Assembly (NCBI GenBank): GCA_036630325.1
Contig: CP142733.1
Span: 496,001-560,000 of the forward strand
Length of the DNA stretch: 64,000 bases
Reading direction: 5' to 3'
From: Vairimorpha necatrix
Taxonomy: Eukaryota
Positions 1-47,840 of the stretch are shown piece by piece. Every line of letters begins with the position of its first letter. Positions within the stretch are counted from its first letter, which is position 1. A program made the translations under genes and the position numbers. The notes beneath the pieces were generated by a model that was given only the letters and a program-made list of their open reading frames with translations, made no database searches and was not told where the DNA came from.

Positions 1-587
1 GAGCTCCTTACTCGCCGACGACTACTGGATTGGTAGAGAGATTTAATCGGACGTACGCAGAGAAGCCGAAAAAAGTATCGAATTTTAACAAAAAAGACTA
101 CGCAAGGGAATAGGTAAGGCCTAAAGAGTATTTTAATTTGTTCCACCGCATGTTAAAATGCTCGACAGGAAATGTGGTTGAATAAAAGAATGTCGAAACA
201 GCAAAGGCGTTATATATCACGTTATAAAACAAGTTATTGTAAACTGGATGAAGTCAGACCTAAAAGGAAATTAAAAGATAAAATACTCTATCATAATTCA
301 AAGAGAAAGACCATCAATTGGAAGCGTATTATATTTTCTGCGCAACTATTATTTTAGAAACTTGGATCAGCCGAAATAAAGTTAGCAAATGGAAAAATTA
401 TAACCTAAAGTTTAAGAAACTTAAGGAAGTATATTTTTTTAAAGACGAAAGAGTGTTGAAAGTATAAGATGTAAAATGTCTTCCATTTATTTTCTAAATG
501 ACATTCGCCCAAGATATTTGACATTTGGACTATAAATTCAGTAAATAAATAAACCCATGTTTTCTAATAACAGATTTGCGTACAACA
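1..587 (+). mobile_element. 3' end of a degenerate Ty3/gypsy LTR retrotransposon (family 2): integrase remnant, PPT and 3' LTR; truncated by window start
   Basis: Frame from nt 3 reads APYSPTTTGLVERFNRT, the integrase catalytic-Glu motif, then stops and frameshifts. Purine-rich tract AAAGACGAAAGAG (441-453) precedes TGTTG...CAACA (454-587). Confidence 0.85.
454..587 (+). repeat. LTR of Ty3/gypsy family 2 (134 bp)
   Basis: TGTTG...CAACA inverted termini, preceded by a PPT; closely similar to the reverse complement of the solo LTR at 47699-47840. Confidence 0.85.
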
Positions 588-1025: not shown

Positions 1026-2105
1026 CTATATTAGTTGATAATGTGTCTTTCCTCCAGAAGTATCCACTATTTTGATCTTATTCCTCAAAACTAGATTATT
1101 TAGTAAGTTGCTCCACATTTTTACATGAAATTTTTTCAAAGGTTTACAGAGATAAATTCTTCGGATATCTGATACAGTAAAGGGGTTTCCAATGCCGACT
1201 TTATCTTTTAATTTGCCAATCCAGAAGTCGTCATTATATTCCTCATTTGGATATGTCAAATAACGTATATCTTGAGATGAATCCTCAATTGTATTTTGAG
1301 ATTTGTCACTTTCTTCTAGATTCTCCTTGTTGATCTTATTTTTATATTTAAAATCTCCTGCTTTAAGTTTTTCTTCTAAGCTGCTATTAAGTTTAATATT
1401 TTGAGTTATACTTTTTTTCATTTTATTTTCTTCGTCGATCTTTGTTTTGACTTCTTTTAGACTGTCTTTAATTTTGCTCTTCTCACTGTCTTTAATTTTG
1501 CTCTTTTCTTGTAAAGCTGTTTTTATCTTATTTTCTTCGCTAGCTTTTACATTGCTTTCTTTTAAACTGTCTTTTACATTGCTTTTTTCTTTTGAACTGT
1601 CTTTTACATTGCTTTCTTTTAAACTGTCTTTAATTTTGATCTTTTCTTGCGATGATGTTTTTATCTTGTCAGACACATTTTCTTTTACTTTGCTTTCTTT
1701 GACTTTACTCTTTTCATTTTCTTTGACTTTACTCTTTTCATTTTCTTTGACTTTGCTCTTTTCATTTTCTTTTATCTTGTCTGTCATATTGTCTTTATTT
1801 TTCTTTACTTTCTTTCTTGGATTTATAGTCTCAATTATCTCTTCTGATATCCTGCTCAATTCATACACATCTTTTGGTTCTTCTTTTAGTATCTTTTTTG
1901 TCTTGCTCCTGTTTTGGTTATTTTGTTCCATTAATAATTTTCTTATTGCCCTGAGATCACCACTAATCTGCTGGAACCAGTTTGCTACAAAGTGATTGCT
2001 TCCTACATTGAGATCAAATTCAGACATACTATCATTTAATTGTCTTTTAGTCTTAGTGTTCTTACGCGACGAAGAAGTTTTTTCTTCGGTCTCTTTTTTC
2101 GTCAT
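1026..2105 (-). CDS. Lys/Glu/Ser-rich repeat protein, 359 aa, possible C-terminal winged-helix-like domain
   Basis: Start moved to the ATG at 2105 (CCCTTAGG-ATG context). Central KENEKSKV / KESNVKDS repeats; globular-looking C-terminal ~70 aa. Confidence 0.75.
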   Translation of the reverse strand: MTKKETEEKTSSSRKNTKTKRQLNDSMSEFDLNVGSNHFVANWFQQISGDLRAIRKLLMEQNNQNRSKTKKILKEEPKDVYELSRISEEIIETINPRKKVKKNKDNMTDKIKENEKSKVKENEKSKVKENEKSKVKESKVKENVSDKIKTSSQEKIKIKDSLKESNVKDSSKEKSNVKDSLKESNVKASEENKIKTALQEKSKIKDSEKSKIKDSLKEVKTKIDEENKMKKSITQNIKLNSSLEEKLKAGDFKYKNKINKENLEESDKSQNTIEDSSQDIRYLTYPNEEYNDDFWIGKLKDKVGIGNPFTVSDIRRIYLCKPLKKFHVKMWSNLLNNLVLRNKIKIVDTSGGKTHYQLI

Positions 2106-2640
2106 CCTAAGGGTGAACAAAAAAAGATGAAAAATGAGCAAACAAAGACAAACACAGGTAAAATAAAATAAAAGAGAAATTTTACTATCAAATAAAGGGT
2201 TATATAGAATATGAAAATATTCATTACGACATTCTGTCTCATATCTTCTTTTTATTGTTTGCTTCTTTTGAAGACTTGCTAGTATCAAAGGAAGTCTTTA
2301 AGACCTTTACAGATCTAAAACATTATTTTTTAACTTTGGCCTTATTTTGGAATATTTGATCATTTTTTGATGATTTATTAGACCTCTTATTTTTTAATTT
2401 GTAGTACTAAGATATTTTAGTACTTAATATAAATTTCTTGAATATTTTAAGATATTCTAAATAGCTTAAATGACACTACTTTTTTTTCTTGTTTGTTGTG
2501 GTTAATTCTTATAGGACTCATCTTCATTCCTTCTAGAAGTAACTTCTTCTAGAACTTATTTGCATTTTAAAAAATGTCTCAGCATTAAATAAAAACATTG
2601 GAATATTTAAAATAAAGTATTAAACATAAAACATCTTTTT

Positions 2641-2744
2641 GTTTGTGTGACTCGTCTTGGCAGGCGACATGATATGGTTGACATGTCCTAATTTTGTGTG
2701 ACATCTGTCTCTGTGATGTAGTAATGTGCATCACAGAGACAGAT
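2641..2744. other. GC-richer structured intergenic island with a perfect 16-bp hairpin
   Basis: ATCTGTCTCTGTGATG (2703-2718) and CATCACAGAGACAGAT (2729-2744) are exact reverse complements; two smaller stems lie upstream. Function unknown. Confidence 0.5.
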
Positions 2745-2768
2745 TCCTTCTTGATAAAAATGAATTTT

Positions 2769-2843
2769 ACTTAAATTTTATTTTTAAAAAAGACATAAAT
2801 TTGACTTAAATTTTATTTTTAAAAAAGACATAAATTTCACTTA
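2769..2843. repeat. 35-bp tandem duplication upstream of GlyRS
   Basis: ACTTAAATTTTATTTTTAAAAAAGACATAAATTT(G/C) at 2769 and 2804, partial third copy at 2839. Confidence 0.85.
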
Positions 2844-2876
2844 GATTTTTTCTTAAGTTTGACCCCTCAAAATAAT

Positions 2877-4628
2877 ATGAGAAAATTTGATACTCAAAAA
2901 CTAGAGCAAATTCTAAAATCAAGATTTTTCATAAACCAAACTGCTCAAATCTATGGAGGCATGGCCGGTCTATTTGACATGGGTCCTATTCTCTTTGGTA
3001 TAAAACAAAATTTTTTTTCTTTATTCAGAAAACATTTCATCCAATACGATAAATTATTCGAAATTGATACATCTATTCTTCTTCCATACTCCGTCTTAAA
3101 ATCAAGTGGTCATGTTGACAAATTCTGTGATATTTTAATAATTGATAAAAAAAATAAAAATTCTTATCGTGCTGATCATTTAATTATAGATTATTTATCA
3201 AAACTAAATCTAAATGATACTATAAAAAATGATATAAAAAGAGTTGATGTAGCAAATTGTCTTGAAATTGATGAATTAATAAAAAAATATAAAATTTTAT
3301 CACCAGATAATAATGAATTATCATCTGCTATGAAATTCAATTTAATGTTTGAAACAAATCTTGGTTATAAAGAAAACCAATCTGTTTTTTTGAGACCTGA
3401 GACGGCACAAGGCCAATTTTTAAATTTTAAAAAATTATACGAATTTAATAATAAAAAAATGCCATTTGGATCTGCTAGTATTGGTAAAGCTTTTAGAAAT
3501 GAAATAAGTCCAAGATCAGGATTAATAAGAACTAGAGAATTTGAACAAGCAGAAATTGAATTTTTTGTTTCACCTACAAAAAAAAATTTTGAAAAATTTT
3601 TAAAAGTAAAAAATTTAAAATTAAAATTATGTTTTGATGATAAAGAAAAATTAATGTCTTTAGAAGACGCAGTAAAATCAAATATTATTGATAATGAAAT
3701 TTTAGGATATTTTATAGGTAGAACATATTTATTTTTAGAAAAAATAGGTATAGATACAAAATTGATAAGATTTAGACAACATAAAAAAGATGAAATGGCT
3801 CATTACGCTAAAGATTGTTGGGATTGTGAAATATTTTCGTCTTATGGGTGGATTGAATGTGTCGGTATAGCTGACAGGTCTGCTTATGATTTGACTTGTC
3901 ATAGTAAGGCGACAGGTATAGATTTATCTTTTAGTGAAAAAATTGTACCACCTATAAATAAAAAAGAATGGAAAGTTAATTTAGTAAAAAAAGATTGGAT
4001 AAAAATTTTTAAAAAGGATTATGAAGTTTTTAATAATGAAATTAGTAGTTTAGATGAAGAATTTATCAAAAATAATATGTTTAAAGAAAATGATAAAAAT
4101 TTTTTAAATTACAAATTCCAAGATAAAGATTATAAATTAGAATGTTCTTTAGTTGATATAACGATTCATGAGATAAAAACCATTCCTGATGTTATTGAGC
4201 CTTCATTTGGTGTAGGCAGGATTTTATACATTTTACTTGAGCACGCCTTTTATATGCGCGAAAACAGGCCTGTTTTACGCCTAAAACCCATCATGTCGCA
4301 TACTAAAGTGGTAATTTCTTATGTGGTTTTTAATACTGAATTTACTAAATATATTGAAGAGATAAATGATAAATTGTATAATAAGAATATTGTAGTAGAA
4401 ATTAATGATAGGTCTTGTAGTATTGGTAAGAAATATTCGTCATGTGATGAGATCGGCGTACCATTTTTCATTACATTTGATCCTGAATCACTTATTGATA
4501 ATAAAGTGACTATTAGAGAGCGAGACAGTATGGAACAGATAAGAGTGAAGATAAGCGAAGTGGTGGAATTGATAACAGAACTGGTTAATGAGAATATTTC
4601 ATGGGAAGAAATTAAATTAAAAAATTAA
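2877..4628 (+). CDS. GRS1: Glycyl-tRNA synthetase (eukaryotic class II type)
   Basis: Motifs SGHVDKF, LRPETAQG, FRNEISPRSGLIRTREFEQAEIEFF, EMAHYA, GWIECVGIADRS, VIEPSFGVGRI and a C-terminal anticodon-binding domain. ATG at 2877 follows CCCC. Confidence 0.97.
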   Translation: MRKFDTQKLEQILKSRFFINQTAQIYGGMAGLFDMGPILFGIKQNFFSLFRKHFIQYDKLFEIDTSILLPYSVLKSSGHVDKFCDILIIDKKNKNSYRADHLIIDYLSKLNLNDTIKNDIKRVDVANCLEIDELIKKYKILSPDNNELSSAMKFNLMFETNLGYKENQSVFLRPETAQGQFLNFKKLYEFNNKKMPFGSASIGKAFRNEISPRSGLIRTREFEQAEIEFFVSPTKKNFEKFLKVKNLKLKLCFDDKEKLMSLEDAVKSNIIDNEILGYFIGRTYLFLEKIGIDTKLIRFRQHKKDEMAHYAKDCWDCEIFSSYGWIECVGIADRSAYDLTCHSKATGIDLSFSEKIVPPINKKEWKVNLVKKDWIKIFKKDYEVFNNEISSLDEEFIKNNMFKENDKNFLNYKFQDKDYKLECSLVDITIHEIKTIPDVIEPSFGVGRILYILLEHAFYMRENRPVLRLKPIMSHTKVVISYVVFNTEFTKYIEEINDKLYNKNIVVEINDRSCSIGKKYSSCDEIGVPFFITFDPESLIDNKVTIRERDSMEQIRVKISEVVELITELVNENISWEEIKLKN

Positions 4629-4706
4629 GTTTTTAAGTTTTTTATACGTGGTTTAATAATGAGATTTTAAATGTAACCTCTTTTAAAAATCTTAAACTTT
4701 GCGTCT

Positions 4707-4776
4707 CTGCCAGATGAGACTGTAAGCGTATCCTGTGAAAAGTAATTAATAAGCCGAATATATATCCAATCAATTA
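4707..4776 (+). mobile_element. 70-bp 5'-truncated non-LTR retrotransposon insertion with a 14-bp TSD
   Basis: Matches the reverse complement of about 28790-28862 (3' end of the LINE). Flanked by TAAACTTTGCGTCT (4693-4706) and TAAACTTTGCATCT (4777-4790). Confidence 0.85.
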
Positions 4777-4988
4777 TAAACTTTGCATCTAAAGACTCCA
4801 GTGGTATCATATTTTAGATTTAAAATTTTCATTACAATAAGTTATATAATTATATTAAAGTTTGATGATAAGAAATCTAATTAAAATTATTTATTTTATT
4901 ATAATACATGTTTAAATTTCTTTGTTTATAGTATAGATACAATTATTATAATAGTATATTTGGTCATATTGAAATTTGGCCCTTAGAC

Positions 4989-6179
4989 ATGGTTGAAATA
5001 AATTCAAATCTCATGAAATACAAATCTATAAAACTCGCATCTTATCTCAATGACAAATTCCCTCTCTACGAAAAGTCAGTTTTACAAATCGAAAAAGACA
5101 AAATATCTTCTATAAAATCAAACATGGAAACCGAAATCTTCAAAATATTTATCCAAAATTCTGATTCCTTACTCGATATCCTTTACTCTTACGAATCTGT
5201 TTACTTAAAACTAAACGAATTAAAAGATTTAACTTTCCATACAAATTTCCAAAATGAAAAAATTTTAAATGTAAATAAAAAAAAACTTGAAAGTTTTAAA
5301 GCGATTTTGAAAAATTTTACTACTGATTTATCAAGTTTTGATACTGGTACACGAATTTTGGAACATTTCGAGTTTTTAGATGATTTCATTTTACTAATGA
5401 CAAATGACATACTTATTATTGGTAAGAAAAATGGTAGAGAATATTCATTAATTAATACATTTAATTATTCGATAATAGAAATGTATATTAAAAATGAACT
5501 TAAAATTAAAATGGGCGAGACAGAGTTATCTTTTAAAGGGGAAAAAGTTAAATTAATAGGAATTTTGGATAAATTTAAAGAATTAAGTTATAATTATGAA
5601 AATTCTGTAACAGAAGATAATAAAATTATAAATAAAGATGAAGATTTAGAAGAATATTATTTAGAAACAGAAAGATATGATAAATTAAGTAGTCGAAATT
5701 TTACTATACAAAAGAATATAAATTTTTTTATTGATATAAAAATTTTGGAAAATTTTTCAAAAAAAAATCAAGATTTTTTGATTTTTTTTCTAAAATACAA
5801 ATTTAATGAAAATTTACTAAGAATTTCAAAATGTAAACCACTTTTACAATTAATTGATGAAGTTTTTGAATATTTTTATAAATTTTTTGATGAAGAAAAA
5901 AAAATTTATAAAAAAATTAATATAAAAATTTTATTATTAATAGAAGATCACATATTAACTTGTTTTAAGTATTTTGAAAAGAGATTGATAAATAGAAGAT
6001 TTTATTCTGTGACACTTGATGATATTTTTAAGGATTTGAGGAGTAAATTAAAATTTAAAAATTTTGATTTTTCGTATTTGATAGAGTATTTTACAGATGA
6101 GATGCGAAAACAGAATGAGAAGTTTTTAAATCAAACTAAGAATGAAATCAAGAAAATTATAAGGGAGTTTCTTGAATAA
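4989..6179 (+). CDS. Hypothetical protein, probable exocyst Exo84-like (N-terminal coiled coil plus PH-like domain)
   Basis: 396-aa ORF with CCC upstream. LLMTNDILIIGKK resembles the Exo84 PH strand (LFLLNDxLLVA); helical N- and C-termini. Identity judged by eye only. Confidence 0.5.
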   Translation: MVEINSNLMKYKSIKLASYLNDKFPLYEKSVLQIEKDKISSIKSNMETEIFKIFIQNSDSLLDILYSYESVYLKLNELKDLTFHTNFQNEKILNVNKKKLESFKAILKNFTTDLSSFDTGTRILEHFEFLDDFILLMTNDILIIGKKNGREYSLINTFNYSIIEMYIKNELKIKMGETELSFKGEKVKLIGILDKFKELSYNYENSVTEDNKIINKDEDLEEYYLETERYDKLSSRNFTIQKNINFFIDIKILENFSKKNQDFLIFFLKYKFNENLLRISKCKPLLQLIDEVFEYFYKFFDEEKKIYKKINIKILLLIEDHILTCFKYFEKRLINRRFYSVTLDDIFKDLRSKLKFKNFDFSYLIEYFTDEMRKQNEKFLNQTKNEIKKIIREFLE

Positions 6180-6380
6180 TGAGAAATAAAATTATACATG
6201 TTTTTTACTATATTTAAAAATTAATAATGTAAATTTATAATGTAAATTATGGAAATTGTACAATTCACTTTTAAAATCTATAATTACATTATAAAGTTGT
6301 ATACATCACAATATAAATTTGTGTAATTCAAAATATAAATTTGTATAATCAATTTATAATTTGTTTTTTTTAATCCCCAA

Positions 6381-7793
6381 ATGTCTCTTTTGAATTACGA
6401 ACAACTTTTCGTCAAAACAGTCCCAATAGAATCAGCTATTAAAGTTAATATAATTCCATATTCTTACAAGAATAAAGAATACTCCACTTCTGATTCCTCT
6501 AATCTCGATTATCTTAAAAATCTAAACCCAGCCTCCAATTCTACTTATCGTATCATGCCTGACAAATCCATTGAGTGTTTCGTTTGCCTTTCTAGAAACG
6601 ACGAGGAGGCCGACGAATGGAGGGCGAGTGTCGCGACAAGCGGCGCGTCTTGTTACAATTTACTGTCTCATTTTGATAATCCACTAAACATTAATATCAA
6701 GAATATTGACAATATAAGAGATTTTATATCAGGAATAGTACTGGCTTATTATAAATACAACTTTTTATTTAAAAAATCTTCTGATCGACAAGCTATTTCT
6801 ATTATTAGCGAGTATGACGAATTTGTAGAAATTTCTAATGCCCAGAATTTCGTGCGTTTTCTAGGCGACACACCCGCAAATTTGATGACTCCAAGTATTT
6901 TCACTAAATATGTAGAGAAATATTGTCAAGGAATGGATTTCACAGTCTATGACAAGGATTTCATGTCTGAAAAAAATATGAATCTTTTACTAGGTGTTTC
7001 TAGAGGATCAAATGAAGACCCGAAACTTATAAAAATATCTTATAAAGGATCTAATAAAGACAATATTGATGTCTCATTAGTAGGAAAAGGTATTACTTTT
7101 GATACTGGTGGTATTTCTTTAAAATCCCCTGCTAATATGTCGGCCATGAAAGGTGACATGCTTGGTGCTGCCACAGTTCTCGCTACTATAAAATTGGCTC
7201 ATGATAAGAAATTAAAAATTAATATTGAGGCAATTTTGCCTCTTTCTGAAAATATGCCAGGAGGCCGCGCTACTAAACCCGGAGATGTGCATGTGAGCAT
7301 GTCTGGCTTGAGTGTAGAAGTAGACAATACAGACGCGGAAGGCCGATTAATACTTGGAGATGCACTTACATTTGCACAAGAAAGTAGTCCAGAATATTTA
7401 TTTGATATTGCTACACTTACAGGCGCCATGACAGTGGCACTAGGTGAAGATTATTTGGGATATTTTTGTAATAACGAAGATCTTAATGAAATAATTAATA
7501 AGTCGAGTGACGAGTCAGGAGACTTGGCCTGGAGGATGCCCCTGTCTAATCTTTTTTTGTCTTGTATGAAATCTAATGTGGCAGATCTTAAAAATGCAGG
7601 GAATAGAAAAGGAGGCTCGTGTAGTGCGGCGATTTTCTTGTCTAAATTTGTTAAAGAAAATGTCAAGTGGTGTCATTTTGATATTGCGGGTGTTGATTTT
7701 GACCATAGGAATAAAGTTTTGTATGGGAAAGGAATGACAGGGAGAGGGTTTCCTTTGTTGTATGAGTTAGTTAAGAATTTGAGTGATCAATAA
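6381..7793 (+). CDS. Leucine aminopeptidase, peptidase family M17
   Basis: VGKGITFDTGG, MKGDMLGAA, NTDAEGRLIL, DIATLTGA and HFDIAG motifs; CCCCAA-ATG. Confidence 0.96.
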   Translation: MSLLNYEQLFVKTVPIESAIKVNIIPYSYKNKEYSTSDSSNLDYLKNLNPASNSTYRIMPDKSIECFVCLSRNDEEADEWRASVATSGASCYNLLSHFDNPLNINIKNIDNIRDFISGIVLAYYKYNFLFKKSSDRQAISIISEYDEFVEISNAQNFVRFLGDTPANLMTPSIFTKYVEKYCQGMDFTVYDKDFMSEKNMNLLLGVSRGSNEDPKLIKISYKGSNKDNIDVSLVGKGITFDTGGISLKSPANMSAMKGDMLGAATVLATIKLAHDKKLKINIEAILPLSENMPGGRATKPGDVHVSMSGLSVEVDNTDAEGRLILGDALTFAQESSPEYLFDIATLTGAMTVALGEDYLGYFCNNEDLNEIINKSSDESGDLAWRMPLSNLFLSCMKSNVADLKNAGNRKGGSCSAAIFLSKFVKENVKWCHFDIAGVDFDHRNKVLYGKGMTGRGFPLLYELVKNLSDQ

Positions 7794-8014
7794 AAAACTT
7801 CATTTACATAAAATATGCTATATTTCATCTTTTATGCTTTGATCTTCTGAAATATGTTATATTTTGATTTTCTATACTTCATCTTCTATATTTTGATCTT
7901 CTATAAGTATTAATCTTCCAATACAGTCATGATATATTTATATCGCATTTTAATTGCACTAATTTGTAGTGAAATAAAGATCAAATTCATAAAATATTCT
8001 TTATATTTATCCCC

Positions 8015-8560
8015 ATGTTTGTGCTGTCATTCCTCACTGTCTTACATTGTGCTTCTTTCAATCAAGACATCATCAAAGCCAAACTCTTCATCAATGTTCT
8101 CTCCACTCCACTACTCATAGATCTTTTTTACAAAGATTGTCCAAAAACAGTAGAAAATTTTGTCGGTTTATCTACAGGCGAATTATCTTACAAAAAGTCT
8201 ATTTTCCATCGTCTTATTAAAGATTTCGTCATTCAAGGCGGGGACATTCAATATGGGAATGGTACAGGAAGTATGTCAATTTATAATAATAAGCCTTTTC
8301 CTGATGAGAATTTTAAGTATGAACACAAGTTTGGTTCTTTGAGTATGGCGAATAGTGGACCAAATAGTAATGGATCACAGTTTTTTATATGTTTTAAAGA
8401 TTTGGAATTTCTTAATGGTAAACATGTAGTGTTTGGACAAGTGACGAATACGGAGGTATTGAAGGAATTGAATGATATTGAGACTGATAAGAATGATAAA
8501 CCGAAGAAAGATATCATATTGGAGAAGGTAGAGTTTATACAAGAAGATAAGGAGTTATAA
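8015..8560 (+). CDS. Cyclophilin-type peptidyl-prolyl isomerase, secretory-pathway (cyclophilin B-like)
   Basis: [37 protein letters not shown] and GKHVVFG motifs; hydrophobic N-terminus; ends in DKEL; CCCC-ATG. Confidence 0.95.
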
Positions 8561-8649
8561 AAAAAAATAAAAAAAATTTGTTAATTTTAAAAATAATTGA
8601 TTTGTTTTTTTATTATATTTATAATTATTATTGGTTCTAAGTAGTTAGC

Positions 8650-8790
8650 ACAATATAAAATCTAAAAATTTTTATTTTGTCAACACACTACAAAATAAAA
8701 ATTTTAGATTTTGTTAACACACTATAAAAAAAAGATATCTTAGATTTTATCAACACACTACAAAATAAAAATCTAAAAATACACAAAATA
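8650..8790. repeat. Short direct and inverted AT-rich repeats between convergent genes
   Basis: AACACACTA(C/T)AAAA occurs three times; AAAATCTAAAA and TTTTAGATTTT form an inverted pair. Confidence 0.6.
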
Positions 8791-8816
8791 AATCTAAACA
8801 TTTTTAATATTTTTTT

Positions 8817-9971
8817 TTACATATTAAATATCTCATTCTCATTTTTCTCATACATTTCTTTCATCATCTTTTTAATTTCTCTCTCATCATCCTCATAATG
8901 TCCCCCTACAAGTTTCTTCATCAATTTCTCTTCAATCTGACTTATCAACTTATAAAACCCATTATCTTCCAAATACATTTCCTTCATTATTTTATCCACA
9001 TCACTCACTTCGTATTTCTTTATTACTTCTATACATGTATAATAATACACTCTATTTACAAATCTAATATAAATAATATTTCGTAATTTCCTAGCTAAAT
9101 ATTCAATTTTTTTTAGTCTAAAAAAAAATTTAAAAATTTTACTCAATTTTAAAATTAATTCTTTTGAGACTTGATCTAGTGGTGATATATTGTAATATAA
9201 CATGAAACTAGAGTCAGTTAGAAGTATTTCTAACTCTGGGATATTTTTATTGAAGGTTGATTTTATAGTTTCGTGGAGAATGTAAGTGTAAGAAATTTTT
9301 GATAATTTTTTTAGTTGTTTAAAATTATAAAAGAGGTTTTCTAAGAAGTCACTACGATGTAATAAAAAGATATCTTTTAAATTTTTCAAGTGATATGAAT
9401 TAAAAACATTATGACTTAAAATATTACTATGACTTATAGTAATATTATTTGTAGTACTATTATTATGACTTGTAGTATCTAAGTTTTTTACATTTTCTAC
9501 ATTATTATTAGATATCTTTTTTGTGCTCATCTTTATATATAAATCATACATTCCTATATAAAATCCCAATACATCATCTTCTAATTCTATAACTCTTTTT
9601 TTATATTCATTTTTATACTCACTTTTTTCATAAACCCGTGAATTGTACGCCACAATCTCCAATAAATTACAAATCTCCACAGGAAGATCTTCTTTCTTTA
9701 TACAACTCATCCCCAGTGCTATTTTCCTTGTCGGTATTTCTTTTTTATTTTTTATATTTACCAATACAAATATTAATTTTAAAGTATTTGGAGTTATTTC
9801 CAAATTCATAAAAATCAGAAAAGCTTTATAAGATTTATTTCTTATATTAGTAACAAGATAATCTACATTTATATCAATATCAATATTGTTAATATTGTAA
9901 TAACTTTTAGTTGATTTTTTATTATATTTTTTATATATTAAAAACGACATTTTGTTTATAAGTAAATCCAT
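8817..9971 (-). CDS. Reduced gamma-tubulin complex protein (Spc97/Spc98/GCP family)
   Basis: HLKNLKDIFLLHRSDFLENLF resembles the GRIP2 signature (HLxxLKxYFLLxxGDF); a later LSKIFKFFFRLKKIEY helix fits. CCCCC upstream of ATG. Confidence 0.7.
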   Translation of the reverse strand: MDLLINKMSFLIYKKYNKKSTKSYYNINNIDIDINVDYLVTNIRNKSYKAFLIFMNLEITPNTLKLIFVLVNIKNKKEIPTRKIALGMSCIKKEDLPVEICNLLEIVAYNSRVYEKSEYKNEYKKRVIELEDDVLGFYIGMYDLYIKMSTKKISNNNVENVKNLDTTSHNNSTTNNITISHSNILSHNVFNSYHLKNLKDIFLLHRSDFLENLFYNFKQLKKLSKISYTYILHETIKSTFNKNIPELEILLTDSSFMLYYNISPLDQVSKELILKLSKIFKFFFRLKKIEYLARKLRNIIYIRFVNRVYYYTCIEVIKKYEVSDVDKIMKEMYLEDNGFYKLISQIEEKLMKKLVGGHYEDDEREIKKMMKEMYEKNENEIFNM

Positions 9972-9996
9972 AAAGGGGGAATTTTATCCTTAAGAA

Positions 9997-10704
9997 ATGG
10001 AATATGAAAATGAATATGTACACAAGTTTTATAAAGAATATGCAGGAGATTTTAATATAACGAGAAAGAAGATGTGGCCTAAAATAAGAGAATTTTTAGA
10101 GAAAAATGATCAAGAAGATTTTATAAATTTAGATGCGGGATGTGGAAATGGTAGGAATTTACCAAATAAGAAACAAGATAAATCTACAAAAATAGATGAT
10201 AATATTAAATTATGTGATAATATTAAATTATGCGAATGTCATAATATTAAATTATGTGATAATAATATTAAATGTGGAACTTGGTTTGGTTTAGATTATT
10301 CTTTAGAACTCTTAAAATGTATAAATAAATCTTCTAATTTAGTAAGAGGTGATTGTTTAAATCTTCCTTTTCTTGATAAATCTTTCGATTTAGTTCTCAG
10401 TATCGCCGTCTTACATCATTTCAGTACCAGTGCCCGCCGATCTGCTGCCTTAAAGGAGCTCAAGCGTGTTCTTAAAGACACAGGGAAGATTCTTCTTTAT
10501 GTCTGGAATGAAGACACGAAGAGTAAGAAGAAGTTTAGACAAGTGAAAGATAAAGATTATCTAGTGAAGTTTAATGGAATATTTGAGAGATATTATTATT
10601 TATATAATATTGAAGATTTAAGAAAAGAGTGTGAGGAGACAGGATTTAGAGTAGAAGAGATAGGAATAGAACAAGAGAGTATATTTATAATATTAACTCA
10701 ATAA
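9997..10704 (+). CDS. TRM9: tRNA wobble-uridine carboxymethyltransferase (Trm9/ALKBH8 methyltransferase-like)
   Basis: EYVHKFY...[21 protein letters not shown] motif, [18 protein letters not shown]. Confidence 0.88.
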
Positions 10705-10879
10705 ACAACTATAAAATAAAATATTTATGCAAGATTTAGTTTATGTAAGATTTGTATTATTATAATGTAAGATTTGTATATAATATTTTTATGCAAGATT
10801 TAGTTTATGTAAGATTACATAAAATTATGCAACATAAACAAATCTAGAATAAATCTAGTACAAATATTTAGATAAATAT

Positions 10880-11167
10880 TTATTTATCAAGTAGACATTC
10901 TATTTGACTGTTCTTGTTCTTTAATCCTATCATACATATCTCACTCTTAAAATCTTCCAGTTCTTGGTCAAGTGTCTCCATGTTATTATCTAGGACATTG
11001 AGTAAGTGCACTAGTTCATTCTCTATTCCCATGTCTGCCTTCAGTGTCTTCAAGAGGCCTTTCCTTGTGTCTTCCTCTTGGACCAGAAGAGGCTTGATAT
11101 TAGTAGAAGATTTCTTAATGGCGTAAGTAACAGACTTAATATTCTCTAGATTTATCTGATGGATCAT
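10880..11167 (-). CDS. Hypothetical 95-aa coiled-coil protein
   Basis: Start moved to the ATG at 11167 (CCCCCTT-ATG); heptad-like LxxLDxxMETLDxELEDF segment. Confidence 0.7.
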   Translation of the reverse strand: MIHQINLENIKSVTYAIKKSSTNIKPLLVQEEDTRKGLLKTLKADMGIENELVHLLNVLDNNMETLDQELEDFKSEICMIGLKNKNSQIECLLDK

Positions 11168-11194
11168 AAGGGGGCAAAATATAAAAAACTTTTT

Positions 11195-11267
11195 CACCCG
11201 GTACGGGACTCGAACCCGCGACCCTTAGGTTAAGAGCCTAATGCTCTACCAACTGAGCTAACCGGGC
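11195..11267 (-). tRNA. tRNA-Lys (anticodon CTT)
   Basis: 73-nt cloverleaf GCCCGGTTAGCTCAGTTGGTAGAGCATTAGGCTCTTAACCTAAGGGTCGCGGGTTCGAGTCCCGTACCGGGTG, followed by a T6 terminator. Confidence 0.97.
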
Positions 11268-11398
11268 TTAAAAAATGTAATATTGCATATTATATTATAA
11301 ATATATTGTTATATTACAAATAGTATTATACAATATTAAATACAATATTGTATATTAAATATAATACTTTATAATTAAAATATAGAAGATAAATCTTT

Positions 11399-11848
11399 TT
11401 ATTTCTCTTCTATTGTTCCTTTGACTACATCTCTTAATTCACTATCTTCTTCTTCTTTCTTCTTCTCTTTAAGTTTCCCATATGCATATTCCTTATATTT
11501 CTTTATATTCTCCACTACTAGTCTCTTGATCTCCTGGATCTTCTCGTCTAGTTCCTCCTCGTATCTCCGCATAAACCCAGTGACGTAGAATCTGTAGATG
11601 AAAATTGACCCACTGCATTTTGGGACACTCATCCAAATGATAAGAATAAGCTTAAAGAACTGGTAGAAAGGAATAAATCTCAAGATGAAAGATAAGAGAT
11701 TATCTAAGATTAAGAAGATACACATAACTTTGAAATAAATATTGTAAATCTTTTTTAGATTTTTATTATCTTTTTCTACTTTAAATTGGTTGTAAGTGTT
11801 AAAGAAGACAAGACTTGTAGTGACAATGTTTACAATAATTCTAAGCAT
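11399..11848 (-). CDS. TB2/DP1/HVA22 (Yop1/REEP) family ER-shaping protein
   Basis: ILRFIPFYQFFKLILIIWMSVP...GSIFIY signature; CCCCC upstream of ATG. Confidence 0.88.
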   Translation of the reverse strand: MLRIIVNIVTTSLVFFNTYNQFKVEKDNKNLKKIYNIYFKVMCIFLILDNLLSFILRFIPFYQFFKLILIIWMSVPKCSGSIFIYRFYVTGFMRRYEEELDEKIQEIKRLVVENIKKYKEYAYGKLKEKKKEEEDSELRDVVKGTIEEK

Positions 11849-11968
11849 AAAATGAGGGGGAACAAAAAAAAATATGAAAAAATTAAAAAAGATTTATATT
11901 AAATATTTCTAATTCTAGTTATATTTATTATTTTTAATTTAGTTTTTTTTCTAGTTAAGTTTTCTAAT

Positions 11969-12926: not shown

Positions 12927-13050
12927 TGTCAAATGTTTTATTTGGATTTTCCATCCCCTCTTTCGGAAATGTTTTTAAATACTTTTTGTAGCCAATCAAA
13001 TCTGTCCATTTGTAAGAATATGATTGGTCAGCATTTGATCGGCTACGACA
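12927..13050 (-). repeat. 3' LTR of the family-1 element
   Basis: Identical to 16656-16779; adjacent to the PPT at 13051-13057. Confidence 0.97.
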
Positions 13051-13055
13051 CCCCC

Positions 13056-16000
13056 TCAATCAGTCTTCGACGTGTCCTTCTTAATATGACTTATGTTAAC
13101 TCTCAATTCGCCTGCTGAATTTTTTCTTTTTACCAGAAATGCGTCTTCACTTAAAATTTTGACAATAATATAACCAGGTGACCATTTAGCTTCTAACTTT
13201 CCACTTCCTGGGTAATCTCTGTAAACTAAAACATCTTCTCCTATTTTAAACTTTTGCTTTATATCTTTTTCCCCTTTAACGATGTATTTGCTGTATTTTT
13301 TAAAGTTTAAGTCCCTCTTCCGTAAAAGTTCTTGCTTCGTATAGGTCTTAGGGTAACTCCTATTCTCTCATCTATGGCTGTTGTTATTTGCTGACCGTAT
13401 TTTAGAATGTACGGCGATGTTCCTATTGATCGGTTAAACGATAGATTTACTGCCAATGTAGCTTCTTTGACAACTTTCCTCCAGCCAATTTCGCCATAGT
13501 TTGCTAATTTTCTAATTTTGTTCGTCAATGTTTGTATGACCCTCTTAACCGCGCCTGTAGTCTGGTGATGGTATGGCGAACAAAATTCCCATGATATATT
13601 ATACTTTGAACCTAATGCTTGTACCACGCTGTTGTCAAACTCTAAGCCGTTGTCTGTCAAGATTCTTTCGGGTATCCCATGCTTACTAATGATTAATTCT
13701 TCATACGCCTTATATATTTCACAGCTCTTTTTGCTTCGTAAGATCTTGGTTTCTATCCATTTAGAGTAGTGATCGATCGCTACAAATATGTATCCGCTTC
13801 CGCTGTTGTCCGAAAGTTTTCTAAGCAGATCAAATTCCCACAGCAGATTGGGTCTTTCTGAAAGTATTACTTTGTTCTTTGTCTTCACGCGTTGATATCC
13901 CGAACGAAGACATGTTTTGCAATTGCTTACGAATTTCGAAATGTCTTGGTGCATTGTTTTCCACTTATGTGCCTGTGGAATCATAAATTTCATAGTATTT
14001 GATGTCCCATGCCCTGATATTGTATGATACTTTTCTAGTATGTAGTTGATGTTATTATTCGAAAACTGATGTAAATCAATGTTACATGTTTCACACTCTT
14101 GGTGGAATCTACTAAAGCCATCAGCAATGTTATGCTCTCCTTTTATATACTCCAATTCGAAGTCGTATTCCGCCAATTTGAGTGCCCATCTGAGAATCCT
14201 ACTAGTTGGATCCTTCACTGTCCATAGATAGATTAAGGCTTTGTGGTCTGTTCTGAGCGTAAATTTGCTTCCCAAAAGGTAATGTCTAAAATGTTCTATT
14301 CCTTTAACCAAGCCAAGAAGTTCTTTATCGGTAACTGAATAATTCTTCTGACAATTATCTAGTCTTTTGCTAAAGGCGGCTATCATTTTTTCAGCTCCAG
14401 TTTTGTTCTTTTGCAGCAGCACTGCTCCTATTCCCGTTTCAGATGCGTCAGTAACCAGAATGAATGGAGCTTTAAAATTTGGCTGTGTACGTATTGTATT
14501 TTGGCTTAGTACTTTTTTAACGGTTTTAAACGTATCCAGCTGTTTGTCAGTAAGTTTAATTTTTTTACCAGATGTCTGTTTTTCGCCCTTAAGTACATCA
14601 TACAAGGGTCCCGTAATTTCTGCCATCTTTGTCACAAAATCCCTGCAATAGTTGGCCATTCCTAGAAAACTCCTTAATTCCTTTATGGTGGTAGGAATTG
14701 GGTACGCTTGTATATCCTTAATGCGCGTTTCGTCTACCTTTATGATTCCGTTTCCAATGACGTTCCCCAAGATCTTTATTTCCGATCTAAAGAATTTACA
14801 CTTTTTCTTATTAAGCGATAGATTTGCCGCTCTTATTTTTCCCAATACTATTCTCACATGTTTCTTATGTTCTTCCTTGTTCCTTGAATATATTATAATA
14901 TCGTCTAAGTATGGGATCACAAAATTATGGTTTTCTTTCCTGAATATATTGTCCATTGCCCTTTGAAATGTTGCTGGGGCGTTACATAGTCCGAACGGCA
15001 TACGATTAAATTCGTATAATTTCCCCCTATACGAAAATGCTGTCTTTTCCTTGTCTTCTTCTTGTAAAGGAATTTGATGGAATCCACTAGTCGCGTCCAG
15101 TATTGTAAAAATAGTTGCAGTTGATAGACTGTCAAAAATCTCGTCGATTCTAGGTGTCATGTATGCGTCCTTTACTGTTATGCTATTCAGACCTCTATAG
15201 TCTACGCACATTCTCCATGTTTTGTCAGGCTTCGGTACCATCAGTATTCTGCTACACCAGGGACTTCTGCTTTCCCTTAAAATTCCAAGTTCTAGGAGTT
15301 TGTTGATTTCTTTATTTACGGCTTCTTCTTGTGATACTGGTATTCTTCCGTTCCTTTGGCAAATTATCTTCGTACTGTTCGTCTGTATACGATGACTACC
15401 TGCAGTGCAGAGGGTATAGTCGCTTATTTCTGTTTTGAAGACGTCCTCGTACTCTTTCAAAATTTTGTTCTCTTCTAAATCACATGCGGAATTCGACATT
15501 TGGTTGATTCTATATTTTGGTGCATTTAGAATATCTAAAATCAGTTTTTTATTGTCGCATATTACATTTGCTCCTATTATAACATATTTTATGTCTTTGA
15601 TTATTAAGGGTGAGAAGATCACACCTTTTCCATTGATTTCGATTATACAGTCTTTTAAATAGCCTTCAATTTTTAATATTTCATTTCTTATACCTTTTAC
15701 TACGCCATTATATCTAATAATCTTATTACGTTCTTCTTGTGGAATATCATTGTAATTTATGACCGAAACATCGGCCCCAGTGTCTAGTAGTACTTTCGTA
15801 TTTTTATTAAAGAGACGGCTTTGAACAAACAATGGGTTAAAACTATTTTGTATAGGATGTAAATAGAATTCAATTTCTTTATTGTCATGATCTTTCTCGT
15901 CACTTTCGTATTCTTCAACGGCATTTATATTTTTTCTCTTCAAGTTGTTTCTTTCTCTATTGAGTATTATGGTAAGTGCTTTGCAATCTCTTGTGGAATG

Positions 16001-16683
16001 GTTACATTCCCCGTGGAGTGTGCACCGTTTATTAGTATGCCGCGGTAGTTTTTCATGGGTTATGTTTTTTTAAATCCTTTTTCTTTGTAAAAATTAGTGT
16101 GGGGCCCTCTGCCCGCGTTGTCGTGTAGCTTAGTCCTAGCTAACATCTTATCGGGATATGGAATCCACGATATCTCCTCCGCCTTTTGTATAAATCCTTG
16201 CCACGTCTGGACTGTAGTTGCGGTCTGGTATAACAGAGCTTTTATCTCCATTGGTGATTTATTAATTACCATTTGGCACAAAGCGTCCAAATTTATAAGA
16301 GATCTCTCATATATTACAGTAGCTTCCTGTAGCATCTGCGAGTAATCTTCTCTCGTTTCCGGGACCATTATTGAGAGGAACCTGCTTAGTGTTATATCGT
16401 TGTTCTTATACGATCCAAATCTTTTCTTTATTAAATGAAGTATTTCCTCTAAGCTGACTGTCTCCATTTTCCCGCCTTATGTCTGGGAAGCCCATGATAA
16501 TGCTTTCCCCCTGAGCTTGCTCACCAATGCCGTTTTGAATTGATCATTGGTCCATTTCGAAACTTCCCCTACCAACATTATGTCTCTCAGCCAGACATTT
16601 ACATCCTCACCTGCTTCTCCTGTGAAGCATCCGACATTGTTTGTCGTTGTCGCCATGTCAAATGTTTTATTTGGATTTTCCAT
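13056..16683 (-). pseudogene. Disrupted gag-pol polyprotein
   Basis: CX2HX4HX4C knuckle, protease LLDTGAD, RT YLDD, RNase H TDAS, integrase D..D with E replaced by K (GAVKRVIQT). In-frame TAA at 16477-16479, frameshift in an A7 run (16065-16071) and two more frameshifts near 13340 and 13125. Confidence 0.9.
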
Positions 16684-16779
16684 CCCCTCTTTCGGAAATG
16701 TTTTTAAATACTTTTTGTAGCCAATCAAATCTGTCCATTTGTAAGAATATGATTGGTCAGCATTTGATCGGCTACGACA
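16656..16779 (-). repeat. 5' LTR of the family-1 element
   Basis: Identical to 12927-13050; followed directly by the PBS. Confidence 0.97.
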
Positions 16780-17020: not shown

Positions 17021-19897
17021 TACCAATGCTTTATTGTTATTTTTCTCCTCTTTTCAAGAGTGTTTTAAACTTTTAGTAATCAACTAATATTATTGGTCAG
17101 TCAGTGACGTATCCTTATTTATCGGACTTTTATTGACTCATAATTCAACAGAAGAATTTTTCTTAATACTCAAATTGTCTTTACCTAATATTCTGACAAT
17201 AAAATGGCCAAGTGACCATTAGATTCTAGATTACTAATGTATCTCCGCAGGGAAGAACATTTTATATAATTCTAAACTTTTTAATTTAACTTTTTGATGT
17301 ATTTTTTAAAGTTTAAATCACGTTTTTGTGTAAGTTAATGCTTCGTATGTATCTTAAGAAGCTCTTTTAATTTCATCTACTGCTATGTTATTTGCTGCTT
17401 GAAAAATTTACAAGGATGATCCCTTTGATCTAAAAACGATAGATTTACTGCCAATGAATCTTCTAGAACGACCTGTTCAGATTATTTCCTCATAGTTTGC
17501 TAATTTTGTTCGTCAATGTCTATGATTCACTGCATCTGTTATTTGGTGGTAAAAGGCGAACAAAATATCTAAGATAAACTGACTTAGACCCAAATGCCTC
17601 TACTTAAGCGTTGTCAAACTATAAACGTTTGTTTATCAAGATTCTTTAGGGTATCCCATGCTTACAAAGATTTATTTCTCTATTGTCTTATATATTTCGC
17701 AACGCAAAATTTTATTTTCTATTTGTTTTGCAGTAGTGATCGATTGCTATAAATATGTATCCGTTGTTTCTAAAACAGATTAACTTTTCAAAGCTGAGTC
17801 GGTCTTTTTAAAAGTATGGCATTGTTCTTTGTTGATATCTCGAACATAGACAAATTTTGCACTTACTTACGAATTTGATACTTCTTGATGCATGGTTTCA
17901 CGATATGACCGAGAAATCATAAATTTTATGTCACATGCCCTGATATTTTATGATACTCCTTTAGTATGCCGGTAGTGTTATTGTTCGATAACTGATGTAA
18001 ATCAATGTTAGACGTTTCACAATCTCGGTGAAATCTACCAATACATCGTCTATGTTATGCTCTCATTTTATATACTTCATTTAAAAGCCGTATTCCGACT
18101 ATTTGAGTACATATATGAGAAACCTACTTGTCGAAATCTTACGTGTACATAGATAGATTGAGGCTTTATGGTCCGTTTATAGCGTAAATTTGCTTCCTAA
18201 AAGGTAATGTCTAAATGCCCTATTCCTTTAACCAAGTCAAAGAGTACTTTATCGATAAATGAAGAAATTTTCAGACATTATTTAGTCTCTTGCTAAACAT
18301 AGTATTATTTTTTTAGTTCCACCTTTGTGCTGTTGTAGAAGCACTGCTCCGATTCCCGTTTAATATTAGTCAGAAACCAGTATGAATTGGGATTTATAAT
18401 TTTGTATTTACGTATTGTATTTTACTTAGTACTTTTTAGCGGGGTTAACAAACTTAATATTCGGTTTTAAATTTTTATACCAGAAGTCTGTTTTTCGCCC
18501 TTAAGCACGTCATACAAGGGTCCATAATTTCTGCCATCTTTGTCACAAAACCCCTGCAATAATTAGCTATTGATATAAACTTCTTAATTCATTTATGGTG
18601 GTAGAAATTGGGGCTGTTTGTATATATTTGATGCGCGTTTCGTCTACCTTTATGATTCTATTTTCAATGACATTCCCTAAACCCTTTGTTTCTGATTTAT
18701 AAACTTATACTCTTTTCTATTAAGCGATAAATTTAACGTTCTTATTTTTACCAATACTACTTTCACATGTTTCTTAAGGTCTCCCTTGTTTTTATAATAG
18801 ATTATAATATCGTATATGCATGGGGATCACAAAATTTTGGTTTTTTTTACTAAATTTATTGTCCATCCCCCTTGGAATGTTGCTGGTGCATCACATAGTC
18901 CGAATGGCATACGATTAAATTCGTATTTTTTTCATCTATAAGGAAATGCTGTCTTTCCCTTGTCTTTTTTTGTAAAGGAATATGATGGAACAAACATCGC
19001 GTCCAGTATTGCAAAATGGTCGAAGTTTAGGGCTGTCAAAAACACGTTGAACTCAAAAGTCAAGTATGCGCCCTTTAGTGATATTTCATTTAGACCTATA
19101 TAGTCTACGCACGTTATCCATGTTTTACCTGGTTTAGGTACCATCAATATTCTGCTACTCCAGTGGATTCTGATTTCCCTTAAAATTCCAAGTTTCAGGA
19201 GTATATTGATTTCTCCATTTACGGCCTCGGTAAATGACCGTCTGGAATCTGCATTAGCAAAATGAACCCGCAAAAGAAAACCAAATTCGCATTGGAAATA
19301 TGAAAAAATTATTAAAAAGAGAATTAACAACTTATTTTGAATAATAAAAAGAAGATAATTTATACTACACTTTTCGGTATTTGATAAGTCAAAGGAACTG
19401 TAAAAGGTACTCATATTATTCTTCATGGTTTATTTCACGTCTATACCGGATATATCTCCTAGAAATAAATTTAAATCTCCCAATTTTTCTGATATTGTGT
19501 CTCAAAATTATTAAAGTTTACGAAATTGACGACATGATCCACAGTCTTGTGATTCATCTCTGCGATTTATTTAATGCGGCATCATATGCTTTCCATTGAT
19601 CATATTAAAATTAGGTAATACAAAAGTATTACCGAAAGGGCAATGGCCGCATTTCTACTAGTCTCAGTACAAGTAGGGCACACGATGGTTCTGCATTATT
19701 CGATTTTTATAAAATAAACTTTAATTTTTTTCCATTTTCAAAAAAAATTCAAAAGTTATAATCAATTTTTTGTTTTTTGATAAGAAATCCTTTCCAATTT
19801 TCAATGCGGGTTCCCAACGGTCATGTACACCTTTAGTAAAGAATCAATTATTATATTTGTTAGAATATGATTAGTATGTCTTTGATTGGCTACGACA
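17021..19897 (-). mobile_element. Degenerate, internally deleted relative of the family-1 Ty3/gypsy element
   Basis: Colinear nucleotide similarity to 13060-15320 (INT, RH, RT); RT remnant ORF at 18932-19426; LTR-like end TTTGATTGGCTACGACA at 19897; eroded LTR near 17021-17100. Left boundary approximate. Confidence 0.85.
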
Positions 19898-47316: not shown

Positions 47317-47623
47317 TCGATATACATTATTGTGGTATAACCACATGTTTTTGAGTGACCTATCAATAAGGAAACGTCAGACAGTTTCAAAGCACGCCAA
47401 TATTTAGAAAAGGCTAATGATTCATATATAAAACATCAGAAGTGGTTCGTGAACCAAAACTTTAAATAGCAAAATTATGTCGTAGACATGAATCTATTAA
47501 AAGAAACTCAAAGGAACACTTTACAGCTAACTTATACAAACAAAAACTCGACAATAAAACCATTAAAAAAACCAACATTAATTCTATAAGCGTGCTGGAA
47601 CATTTTTACCAGCACAGATACGT
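47317..47623 (+). mobile_element. ~307-bp insertion in M1 copy C, possibly a Helitron-like element
   Basis: Absent from copies A and B; starts A^TC; subterminal hairpin GTGCTGG...CCAGCAC (47592-47615); canonical CTAG end missing. Confidence 0.45.
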
Positions 47624-47698
47624 CAAATATGTTAGGATAATTGGAATTATATAGTTTTTTAGAAATATTATTTTCTACAATTAAATTTTGTATACAAT

Positions 47699-47840
47699 TG
47701 TTGTACGCAAAACTGTTATTAGAAAACATGGGGTTATTTATTTACTGAATTTATAGTCCAAATGTCACATGTCAAATATCTTGTGTCGAATGTCATTTGA
47801 TAAATAATTGTATGACATTTGACATATTATACTTTCAACA
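47699..47840 (-). mobile_element. Solo LTR of Ty3/gypsy family 2 (142 bp)
   Basis: TGTTG...CAACA; 5-bp TSD ACAAT (47694-47698 and 47841-47845); homologous to 454-587. Confidence 0.9.

What the first reader, a model, noticed from the sequence alone, without database searches (positions are those of the whole stretch)
454..587. Two different LTR families embed a TATA-like box, a CCC/GGG signal and an ATG inside the LTR, in the same phase
Seen: the family-2 LTR has TATAAA (531), then CCC-ATG (557) and an open frame of 31 nt to the LTR end; the solo copy has the same layout (CCCC-ATG at 47729). The family-1 LTR has TATTTAAA 27 nt upstream of GGGG-ATG (16683), with 28 nt to the LTR end, in frame with gag. 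Both distances are 3n+1. In family 1 the LTR's last A plus the TG of the PBS forms a second in-frame ATG (16656). Established: microsporidian mRNAs have very short 5' UTRs with CCC/GGG-like motifs next to the start codon, whereas gag normally starts downstream of the PBS. Inference: these elements adapted to near-leaderless host expression by starting gag within R/U5, so every 3' or solo LTR is a portable promoter plus start codon (e.g. the 65-aa ORF 47532-47729).
Basis: partly seen in the sequence, partly recalled or inferred. Interest (0 to 1): 0.75.

Follow-up and report, generated by a model that had tools for sequence, protein, structure and literature searches.

The report
Gag starts inside microsporidian LTRs
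In the retrovirus-like jumping genes of microsporidian parasites, the short repeat at each end already holds a host-style gene start and the first codons of the coat protein, so the primer site that normally lies in an untranslated leader is read as protein; yeast Ty1 has a looser version of this layout.

Summary
All coordinates check out. The in-LTR ATG is very likely the real gag start, and the trait is lineage-wide. Among family-1 Gag relatives, 78 of 91 classifiable N-termini carry an in-frame Met upstream of the LTR/PBS junction ([DN]-M-A-[TS]); chance is 20-38%. A 99%-identical copy with continuous gag-pol begins MENPNKTFD. Family-2 gag is not in the window, but the closest full-length relative of its integrase begins MFSETRCEAN against MFSNNRFAYN here. 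In a published Anncaliia table, 43 of 50 complete elements have their ORF starting inside the LTR; the authors do not comment. Limits: CCC/GGG is present in only 20 of 50; the 3n+1 phase is fixed by the PBS-coded motif and is not universal; no transcription start was mapped; the 65-aa solo-LTR ORF is chance-level (P 0.12) and runs into a MITE-like repeat. Ty1 is a known precedent (PBS inside GAG). Adaptation to near-leaderless host mRNAs is plausible, untested against outgroups. The scan reported this layout five times before on other pieces of the same genome.

The parts
3..432 (+). decayed integrase C-terminal region of the family-2 element (element runs off the window start)
   Evidence: Pfam rve_3 on 3-110; tblastn to N. 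bombycis polyprotein P0153 residues 976-1123
441..453 (+). purine tract before the family-2 3' LTR
   Evidence: sequence
454..587 (+). family-2 3' LTR, 134 nt, TGTTG...CAACA
   Evidence: 87% match to solo copy; further variants with other flanks in two public runs
531..536 (+). TATAAA, 26 nt before the ATG
544..553 (+). two overlapping AATAAA between TATA box and ATG (putative poly(A) signal, transcribed only in a 3' LTR)
   Evidence: LTR positions 91 and 95; function inferred
554..587 (+). CCC-ATG and ten LTR codons MFSNNRFAYN
   Evidence: same length and 5 of 10 residues as the N-terminus of P0153
47699..47840 (-). family-2 solo LTR, 142 nt, target duplication ATTGT, inserted in a MITE-like repeat
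47532..47729 (-). 65-aa ORF: 10 LTR codons plus 55 flank codons; chance-level
16656..16779 (-). family-1 5' LTR, 124 nt: CCAAT/ATTGG pair, TATTTAAA (16710), GGGG-ATG (16683), AATAAA inside the coding part (LTR position 109)
16649..16655 (-). primer-binding site TGGCGAC..., directly after the LTR, read as M-A-T; LTR last A + TG = second in-frame ATG (16656)
   Evidence: primer tRNA not identified (the window's only tRNA, Lys-CTT, does not match)
16060..16683 (-). gag, starting in the LTR; premature stop at 16479-16477 in this copy
13056..16069 (-). pol: protease, RT, RNase H, integrase (Ty3/gypsy order); frame shifts near 16065 and near 13340 in this copy
   Evidence: Pfam; tblastn with full-length relatives
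12927..13050 (-). family-1 3' LTR, identical to the 5' LTR; ATG 12954 opens a 29-codon ORF overlapping the next host ATG out of frame
17030..19897 (-). older decayed relative of family 1 with two LTR relics that lack the ATG
   Evidence: weak alignment

Best explanation
These are microsporidian Ty3/gypsy retrotransposons whose single Gag-Pol frame begins inside the 5' LTR. Shown: an ATG lies 26-27 nt after a TATA-like box, often behind CCC/GGG, and its frame runs through the LTR end and the primer-binding site, which is conserved as codons [ML]-A-[TS]; the LTR-coded leader is 7-24 codons in the family-1 lineage. Inferred: RNA polymerase II starts a few bases before that ATG, as in host genes with leaders under 7 nt, so R, U5 and the PBS are all translated; the AATAAA in or just before R ends transcripts in the 3' LTR and is skipped in the 5' LTR (too near the cap in family 1, upstream of the start in family 2). 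The junction ATG is a by-product of the invariant LTR end (CA) abutting the tRNA-complementary TGG; some elements lack it, and a minority may use it as their start. The likely reason for the layout is that an element transcribed and translated by a host built for near-leaderless mRNAs cannot keep R-U5-PBS as an untranslated leader (this causal step about 0.55).
For: 78 of 91 classifiable Gag N-termini have an upstream in-frame Met versus 20% (ATG) or 38% (ATG/GTG/TTG) by chance; residue before the junction is D/N/Y in 76 of 78, as the LTR end ACA demands; 'NK' (AATAAA in frame) in 34 of 78 leaders versus 1 of 78 equal stretches downstream. Sister copy P0156 with continuous gag-pol starts MENPNKTFD. 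P0153 starts MFSETRCEAN-S-L-A-T with no further Met for 78 residues. Leu instead of Met at the junction in P0059, P0088, P0109, P0157, P0160, P0163, P0166 and Anncaliia O, S, CK, so there the upstream ATG is the only start for the capsid N-terminus. Anncaliia: ORF start inside the LTR in 43 of 50; element V shows directly that the D-M-A-S junction is LTR end/PBS (same N-terminus as P0071). Host genes here: CCC/GGG within 15 nt in 13 of 17, TATA at -26 to -32 in 5 of 17, against 8% of all ATGs. E. cuniculi 5' UTRs under 7 nt (PMC2803860).
Against: No transcription start or translation data at all. Protein starts come from gene callers that favour the first ATG, relatives are not independent, and the search profile included leader columns. 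13 of 91 start at the junction and 56 of 151 could not be classified. Family-2 gag was not seen; the link rests on a relative at 59% identity over 56 residues. LTR boundaries were not seen for the metagenome proteins. CCC/GGG is missing in 27 of 50 Anncaliia elements (3 unreadable). In 6 of 50 the consensus frame from the LTR ATG does not reach the listed ORF. Both copies in the window are defective. No outgroup was tested.
Confidence: 0.82

Rival explanations
1. Gag starts at the junction ATG (LTR A + PBS TG); the upstream ATG is a tolerated extra picked up by gene callers.
For: Sequence conservation begins at M-A-[TS] and the leader is variable in length and sequence; 13 of 91 proteins start at the junction; a TATA-to-start distance of 25-30 nt (recalled) could put the start on or just after the upstream ATG.
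Against: Upstream Met in 78 of 91, far above 20-38%; several elements have Leu at the junction and no Met for 27-78 residues; in Anncaliia groups with other junctions the frame also starts in the LTR.
Confidence: 0.08
2. The LTR start is real but is an inherited compaction trait, like Ty1, with no causal tie to host leader length.
For: Ty1's PBS lies within GAG in budding yeast (PMC4974528); CCC/GGG, the host signal, is absent from over half of the Anncaliia elements; one ancestral event could explain all microsporidian cases.
Against: TATA-to-ATG spacing is tight (23-29 nt in 7 Anncaliia elements measured by eye, 26-27 here) and equals that of TATA-bearing host genes; it holds across elements with unlike LTRs and unlike junction types; R-U5 length varies widely while the ATG stays tied to the TATA box.
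Confidence: 0.35
3. Solo and 3' LTRs act as portable promoter-plus-start cassettes that make new host proteins or control neighbours (the 65-aa ORF; the gene at 12875).
For: Every intact LTR copy carries the signals; the family-1 3' LTR ends 51 nt before a host ATG on the same strand; family 2 has many insertion sites.
Against: ORF lengths 14, 29 and 65 aa are chance-level (P 0.12 for one run of 55 codons among three); the 65-aa ORF reads into a MITE-like repeat and has no Pfam match; the family-1 LTR ATG is out of frame with the neighbour; decayed relics lost the ATG. Yeast solo-LTR transcripts are thought to be mostly non-functional (PMC1657058).
Confidence: 0.1

Closest known systems
Microsporidian single-polyprotein Ty3/gypsy elements (Parisot et al. 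2014, PMC4202319; N. bombycis Nbr elements, Xu et al. 2006, not held)
   Same: Same kind of element: short LTRs, one Gag-Pol frame, PR-RT-RH-IN; Table S1 already lists ORF starts inside the LTR for 43 of 50 complete families, and element V shares its N-terminus with a relative of family 1.
   Different: The paper's main text has no mention of start codon, initiation, ATG, overlap, UTR, PBS or CCC: the layout is in the data but not described there.
Saccharomyces Ty1 (Ty1/copia, Pseudoviridae)
   Same: PBS lies inside the GAG frame (PMC4974528, passages); GAG starts within the LTR and solo LTRs carry promoter and ATG (recalled).
   Different: Copia domain order, initiator-Met primer, 334-nt LTR and a leader of about 50 nt (recalled); here Ty3/gypsy order, TGGCG(A/T)C PBS, 124-142-nt LTRs and a predicted leader of a few bases at most.
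Saccharomyces Ty3 and canonical Metaviridae
   Same: Domain order, LTR ends TG...CA, 5-bp target duplication, purine tract.
   Different: Ty3's PBS segment is next to the 5' UTR, not in GAG; gag and pol are separate frames there.
Microsporidian core gene start (AT-rich or TATA-like tract, CCC/GGG, ATG; Peyretaillade et al. 2009, PMC2803860)
   Same: Same motif order and spacing; CCC/GGG was counted before 54% of predicted transposon genes in V. necatrix (PMC10759460).
   Different: Described for host genes; that paper does not mention LTRs or gag.

Membership tests
Ty3/gypsy (Metaviridae) | Direct LTRs with TG...CA ends and target-site duplication | tested here: met
   Family 1: identical 124-nt LTRs, ATATT; family-2 solo: ATTGT
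Ty3/gypsy (Metaviridae) | Pol order protease-RT-RNase H-integrase | tested here: met
   RVP 84-170, RVT_1 278-435, RNase H 507-635, H2C2 674-723, rve 738-834; for family 2 only through relative P0153
Ty3/gypsy (Metaviridae) | PBS after the 5' LTR and purine tract before the 3' LTR | tested here: met
   TGGCGAC at 16655; GAGGGGG before 13050; purine tract 441-453. Family-2 PBS not seen
Ty3/gypsy (Metaviridae) | Identity of the primer tRNA | not testable with these tools
   No genome held; only tRNA-Lys in the window, no match. A Ser tRNA is a recalled guess
Microsporidian single-polyprotein Ty3/gypsy groups | Gag and Pol in one frame | tested here: met
   Window copy broken, but P0156 (97-99% identical), P0154, P0155 and P0153 are continuous
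Microsporidian single-polyprotein Ty3/gypsy groups | Placement in Parisot groups 1-3 by RT tree | not tested
   No tree built; all named Gag-covering hits were microsporidian apart from two bacterial MAG labels on 3.8-4.2 kb contigs
Ty1/copia (Ty1-like) | Integrase before RT | tested here: not met
Ty1/copia (Ty1-like) | PBS inside the gag frame (works-like feature) | tested here: met
   Ty1 statement in PMC4974528
Microsporidian core gene start | CCC/GGG next to ATG after an AT-rich or TATA-like tract | tested here: met
   3 of 3 intact LTR types in the window; 20 of 50 in Anncaliia by eye
Microsporidian core gene start | Transcription start within a few bases of the ATG | not testable with these tools
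   No RNA holder listed

The most novel reading that the evidence does not exclude
Microsporidian LTR retrotransposons are obligately leaderless: the host cannot scan a leader, so R, U5 and the primer site are all translated, ribosome traffic directly gates primer annealing and packaging, and the many solo LTRs are ready-made gene starts that seed new lineage-specific proteins.
Probability: 0.12. Interest if true: 0.75.

Novelty: new variant of a known kind. Interest (0 to 1): 0.5.

Why it matters
LTR elements normally keep R-U5-PBS as an untranslated leader that holds priming, dimerisation and packaging signals. A whole lineage that translates all of it from almost the first base is a natural test of how translation and reverse-transcription priming share one stretch of RNA, and of whether microsporidian ribosomes can scan at all. 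It also shows a transposon promoter matching host gene-start grammar, and it has a practical side: LTR ends, gag starts and solo LTRs in microsporidian genomes will be mis-annotated by tools that expect gag behind the PBS. It is not without precedent (Ty1), and no function outside the element is shown.

Tried and rejected
No genome was held, so no genome-wide LTR census. Gag scans of viral contigs and metagenome contigs found no locus; two broader alignments were too divergent to scan with. No RNA holder listed; this says nothing about expression. Contigs laid on 1-1400 showed family-2 LTR variants with other flanks in X1 and X2, but no PBS-side loose end among the 18 shown (29 not shown) and the difference table was cut before the ATG, so family-2 frame and ATG conservation were not read directly. 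Cluster look-up for names could not be made. Xu et al. 2006 is not held and may describe ORF position in Nbr elements. Rejected: programmed frameshift between gag and pol (relatives are continuous); the CCC-ATG just after the gag stop as a pol start (it is in the gag frame and closes after 29 codons); the 65-aa ORF as a gene; 3n+1 as a general rule (26 of 43, with 14 and 3 in the other phases). Paper searches found no description of gag starting in microsporidian LTRs; the library lacks most subscription journals.

Full report
1. Observation. Family 2 has a 134-nt 3' LTR at 454-587 with TATAAA at 531 and CCC-ATG at 557, and a 142-nt solo copy at 47840-47699 with target duplication ATTGT. Family 1 is a whole element with two identical 124-nt LTRs (16779-16656, 13050-12927), target duplication ATATT, TATTTAAA at 16710, GGGG-ATG at 16683 and a second in-frame ATG at 16656 formed by the LTR's last A and the TG of the PBS. 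TATA-to-ATG distances are 26, 26 and 27 nt; ATG-to-LTR-end 31, 31 and 28 nt. In 20,000 shuffles of each LTR the full layout arose at 0.00055-0.00075, or 0.0019 without the phase rule (rules set after seeing the data).

2. What the elements are. Pol has the Ty3/gypsy order. The host is a microsporidian: a copy 99% identical over gag and 97% over pol is annotated in Vairimorpha necatrix (P0156), and the other named Gag-covering relatives are from Nosema granulosis, Conglomerata obtusa and Gurleya vavrai, plus two bacterial MAG labels on 3.8-4.2 kb contigs that I take for misbinned DNA (inference). P0156 reads through both the gag stop and the gag/pol shift, so the family has a single Gag-Pol frame, as Parisot et al. 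describe for microsporidian elements (PMC4202319, section 17 and passages). It begins MENPNKTFD.

3. Is the LTR ATG the gag start in family 1's lineage? A profile search gave 398 proteins, of which the best 150 were listed; with one more I examined 151. A motif rule found the junction in 95: 78 have an in-frame Met upstream, 13 start at the junction, 4 are open partials; 56 could not be classified, mostly fragments without the N-terminus. Walking upstream in frame from random window positions meets an ATG before a stop in 20% of cases, 38% if GTG and TTG count. Leaders are 7-24 codons in 76 of 78 (the other two are rule misplacements). The residue before the junction is D, N or Y in 76 of 78, as an LTR ending in ACA requires, and 'NK', the in-frame reading of AATAAA, occurs in 34 of 78 leaders against 1 of 78 equal stretches downstream. 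Caveats: starts come from gene callers, relatives share history, the profile included leader columns, and LTR boundaries were not seen for these proteins. One case closes that last gap: Anncaliia element V (LTR 105 nt, ORF at 69) encodes the N-terminus of P0071 and its D-M-A-S junction is the LTR end and PBS. Several relatives have Leu at the junction; in the four I measured the next Met is 27-78 residues on, so their capsid N-terminus can only come from the upstream ATG.

4. Family 2. Its gag is outside the window, and contigs laid on 1-1400 did not show a PBS-side flank among the rows displayed. The best full-length relative of its integrase remnant is the Nosema bombycis polyprotein P0153 (59% over 56 residues, with further similarity to the C-terminus; one of two hits). 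P0153 begins MFSETRCEAN-S-L-A-T; the family-2 LTR encodes MFSNNRFAYN: same length, five identical residues, and the PBS motif follows after one spacer codon. This makes an in-frame LTR start very likely, but it is indirect. P0153 is only 35% identical to family-1 pol, so the two families are distinct lineages.

5. Breadth. Table S1 of Parisot et al. lists LTR length and ORF position for 50 complete Anncaliia algerae families; the ORF starts inside the LTR in 43. I read the 5' ends of all 50 in File S1 by eye. Of the seven exceptions, S looks like swapped columns (GGG-ATG at 45, D-L-A-S junction), and B, J, Q, AL, AM and BQ have an ATG after a TATA-like box in the LTR whose frame does not reach the listed ORF (a stop is visible in J, Q, AL, AM, BQ; these are consensus sequences with N's). 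TATA-to-ATG was 23-29 nt in the seven I measured. CCC or GGG within 15 nt of the ATG was present in 20 of 50, absent in 27 and unreadable in 3; many of those without it have AATAAA or GG just before the ATG. The background in this window is 179 of 2232 ATGs (8%); host ORFs here have it in 13 of 17, and 5 of 17 have a TATA-like box at -26 to -32 (ORF starts chosen by me). The phase is 3n+1 in 26 of 43, 3n+2 in 14 and 3n in 3 (LTR ends in that table may be off by a base or two). So the shared phase is best read as a constraint of the TGGCG-PBS lineages, where the PBS is conserved as [ML]-A-[TS] (Ala invariant in 58 of 58), not as a general rule.

6. How it most likely works. Shown: promoter-like motifs, ATG and an open frame through LTR end and PBS, conserved across lineages. 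Inferred: transcription starts a few bases before the ATG, as for E. cuniculi genes with leaders under 7 nt (PMC2803860, abstract and passages), so R, U5 and the PBS are coding. AATAAA lies 12 nt after the ATG in family 1 and between TATA and ATG in family 2; either position lets it act only in the 3' LTR (inference). The junction ATG arises whenever the LTR's CA abuts TGG and is dispensable in some elements; a minority may use it as the start. The causal claim, adaptation to near-leaderless host expression, fits the tight TATA-ATG spacing but has no outgroup test; I give it about 0.55.

7. The 'portable promoter plus start codon'. True as sequence, unsupported as function. The three LTR-to-flank ORFs are 14, 29 and 65 aa; a run of 55 open codons occurs at 4% of positions, 12% for one in three. 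The solo LTR sits inside a MITE-like repeat, so the 65-aa ORF reads repeat DNA, and it has no Pfam match. The family-1 3' LTR ends 51 nt before a host ATG and its own ATG is out of frame with it. Two decayed LTR relics of an older relative lack the ATG (weak alignment). In yeast, solo-LTR transcripts are thought mostly to be degraded without function (PMC1657058, passages).

8. Known and new. Ty1's PBS lies within GAG (PMC4974528, passages); that its start codon lies inside the LTR, with a leader of about 50 nt, is recalled. These elements work like Ty1 in this respect but are not Ty1/copia. Parisot et al.'s main text has no hit for start codon, initiation, ATG, overlap, UTR, PBS or CCC; the V. 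necatrix genome paper counts CCC/GGG before 54% of predicted transposon genes but has no hit for LTR or gag (section 22 and passages); PMC7313128 has no hit for LTR, gag or PBS; PMC13174016 and PMC3614468 (passages) do not address it. Nine searches found no description; Xu et al. 2006 could not be read. PMC9503155, PMC6844567, PMC13709905, PMC4551931 and PMC5035971 were seen as passages and added nothing on this point. The scan's own notes report the same layout five times on other pieces of this genome; my reading was recorded before seeing them, and they are not independent support.

9. Verdict. Real, lineage-wide, apparently undescribed though visible in a published table, with a yeast precedent and no expression data. 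New variant of a known kind; interest 0.5.

Noticed in passing
window 12927-16779: The family-1 copy has 100% identical LTRs yet three lesions (one stop, two frame shifts); it may have been copied in trans from a defective template, or the shifts may be assembly errors.
   Followed up: partly
window 12865-12954 (-): The family-1 element inserted 51 nt upstream of a host ORF (12875-12252) on the same strand; the LTR ATG opens a 29-codon out-of-frame ORF overlapping the host start.
   Followed up: partly
window 17030-19897 (-): An older, decayed relative of family 1 (about 75% nucleotide identity) lies directly upstream of the younger copy.
   Followed up: partly
window 25073-26981, 36915-37763, 43358-43674, 47234-47912, 48772-49067: A family of MITE-like inverted-repeat elements with several nested copies; the solo LTR sits in one.
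   Followed up: no
window 28824-30635, 44185-47020, 63251-63998: Decayed non-LTR retrotransposons (RVT_1 match at 29448-30536; C-terminal endonuclease-like motif seen by eye).
   Followed up: no
PMC4202319 File S1: Many Anncaliia elements have a palindrome of the TTGAATTCAA type right after the LTR instead of a TGG primer site, which hints at tRNA-independent priming.
   Followed up: no
window 16725-16779 (-): Family-1 U3 is an imperfect inverted repeat carrying a CCAAT/ATTGG pair; an ATTGG box ahead of the TATA box recurs in many Anncaliia LTRs.
   Followed up: no
window 2105-12875 versus 20311, 21927, 34402, 49602: Two host gene-start types: T-run plus CCC in the housekeeping cluster, TATA at -26 to -31 plus CCC in lineage-specific genes; the LTRs resemble the second type.
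   Followed up: partly
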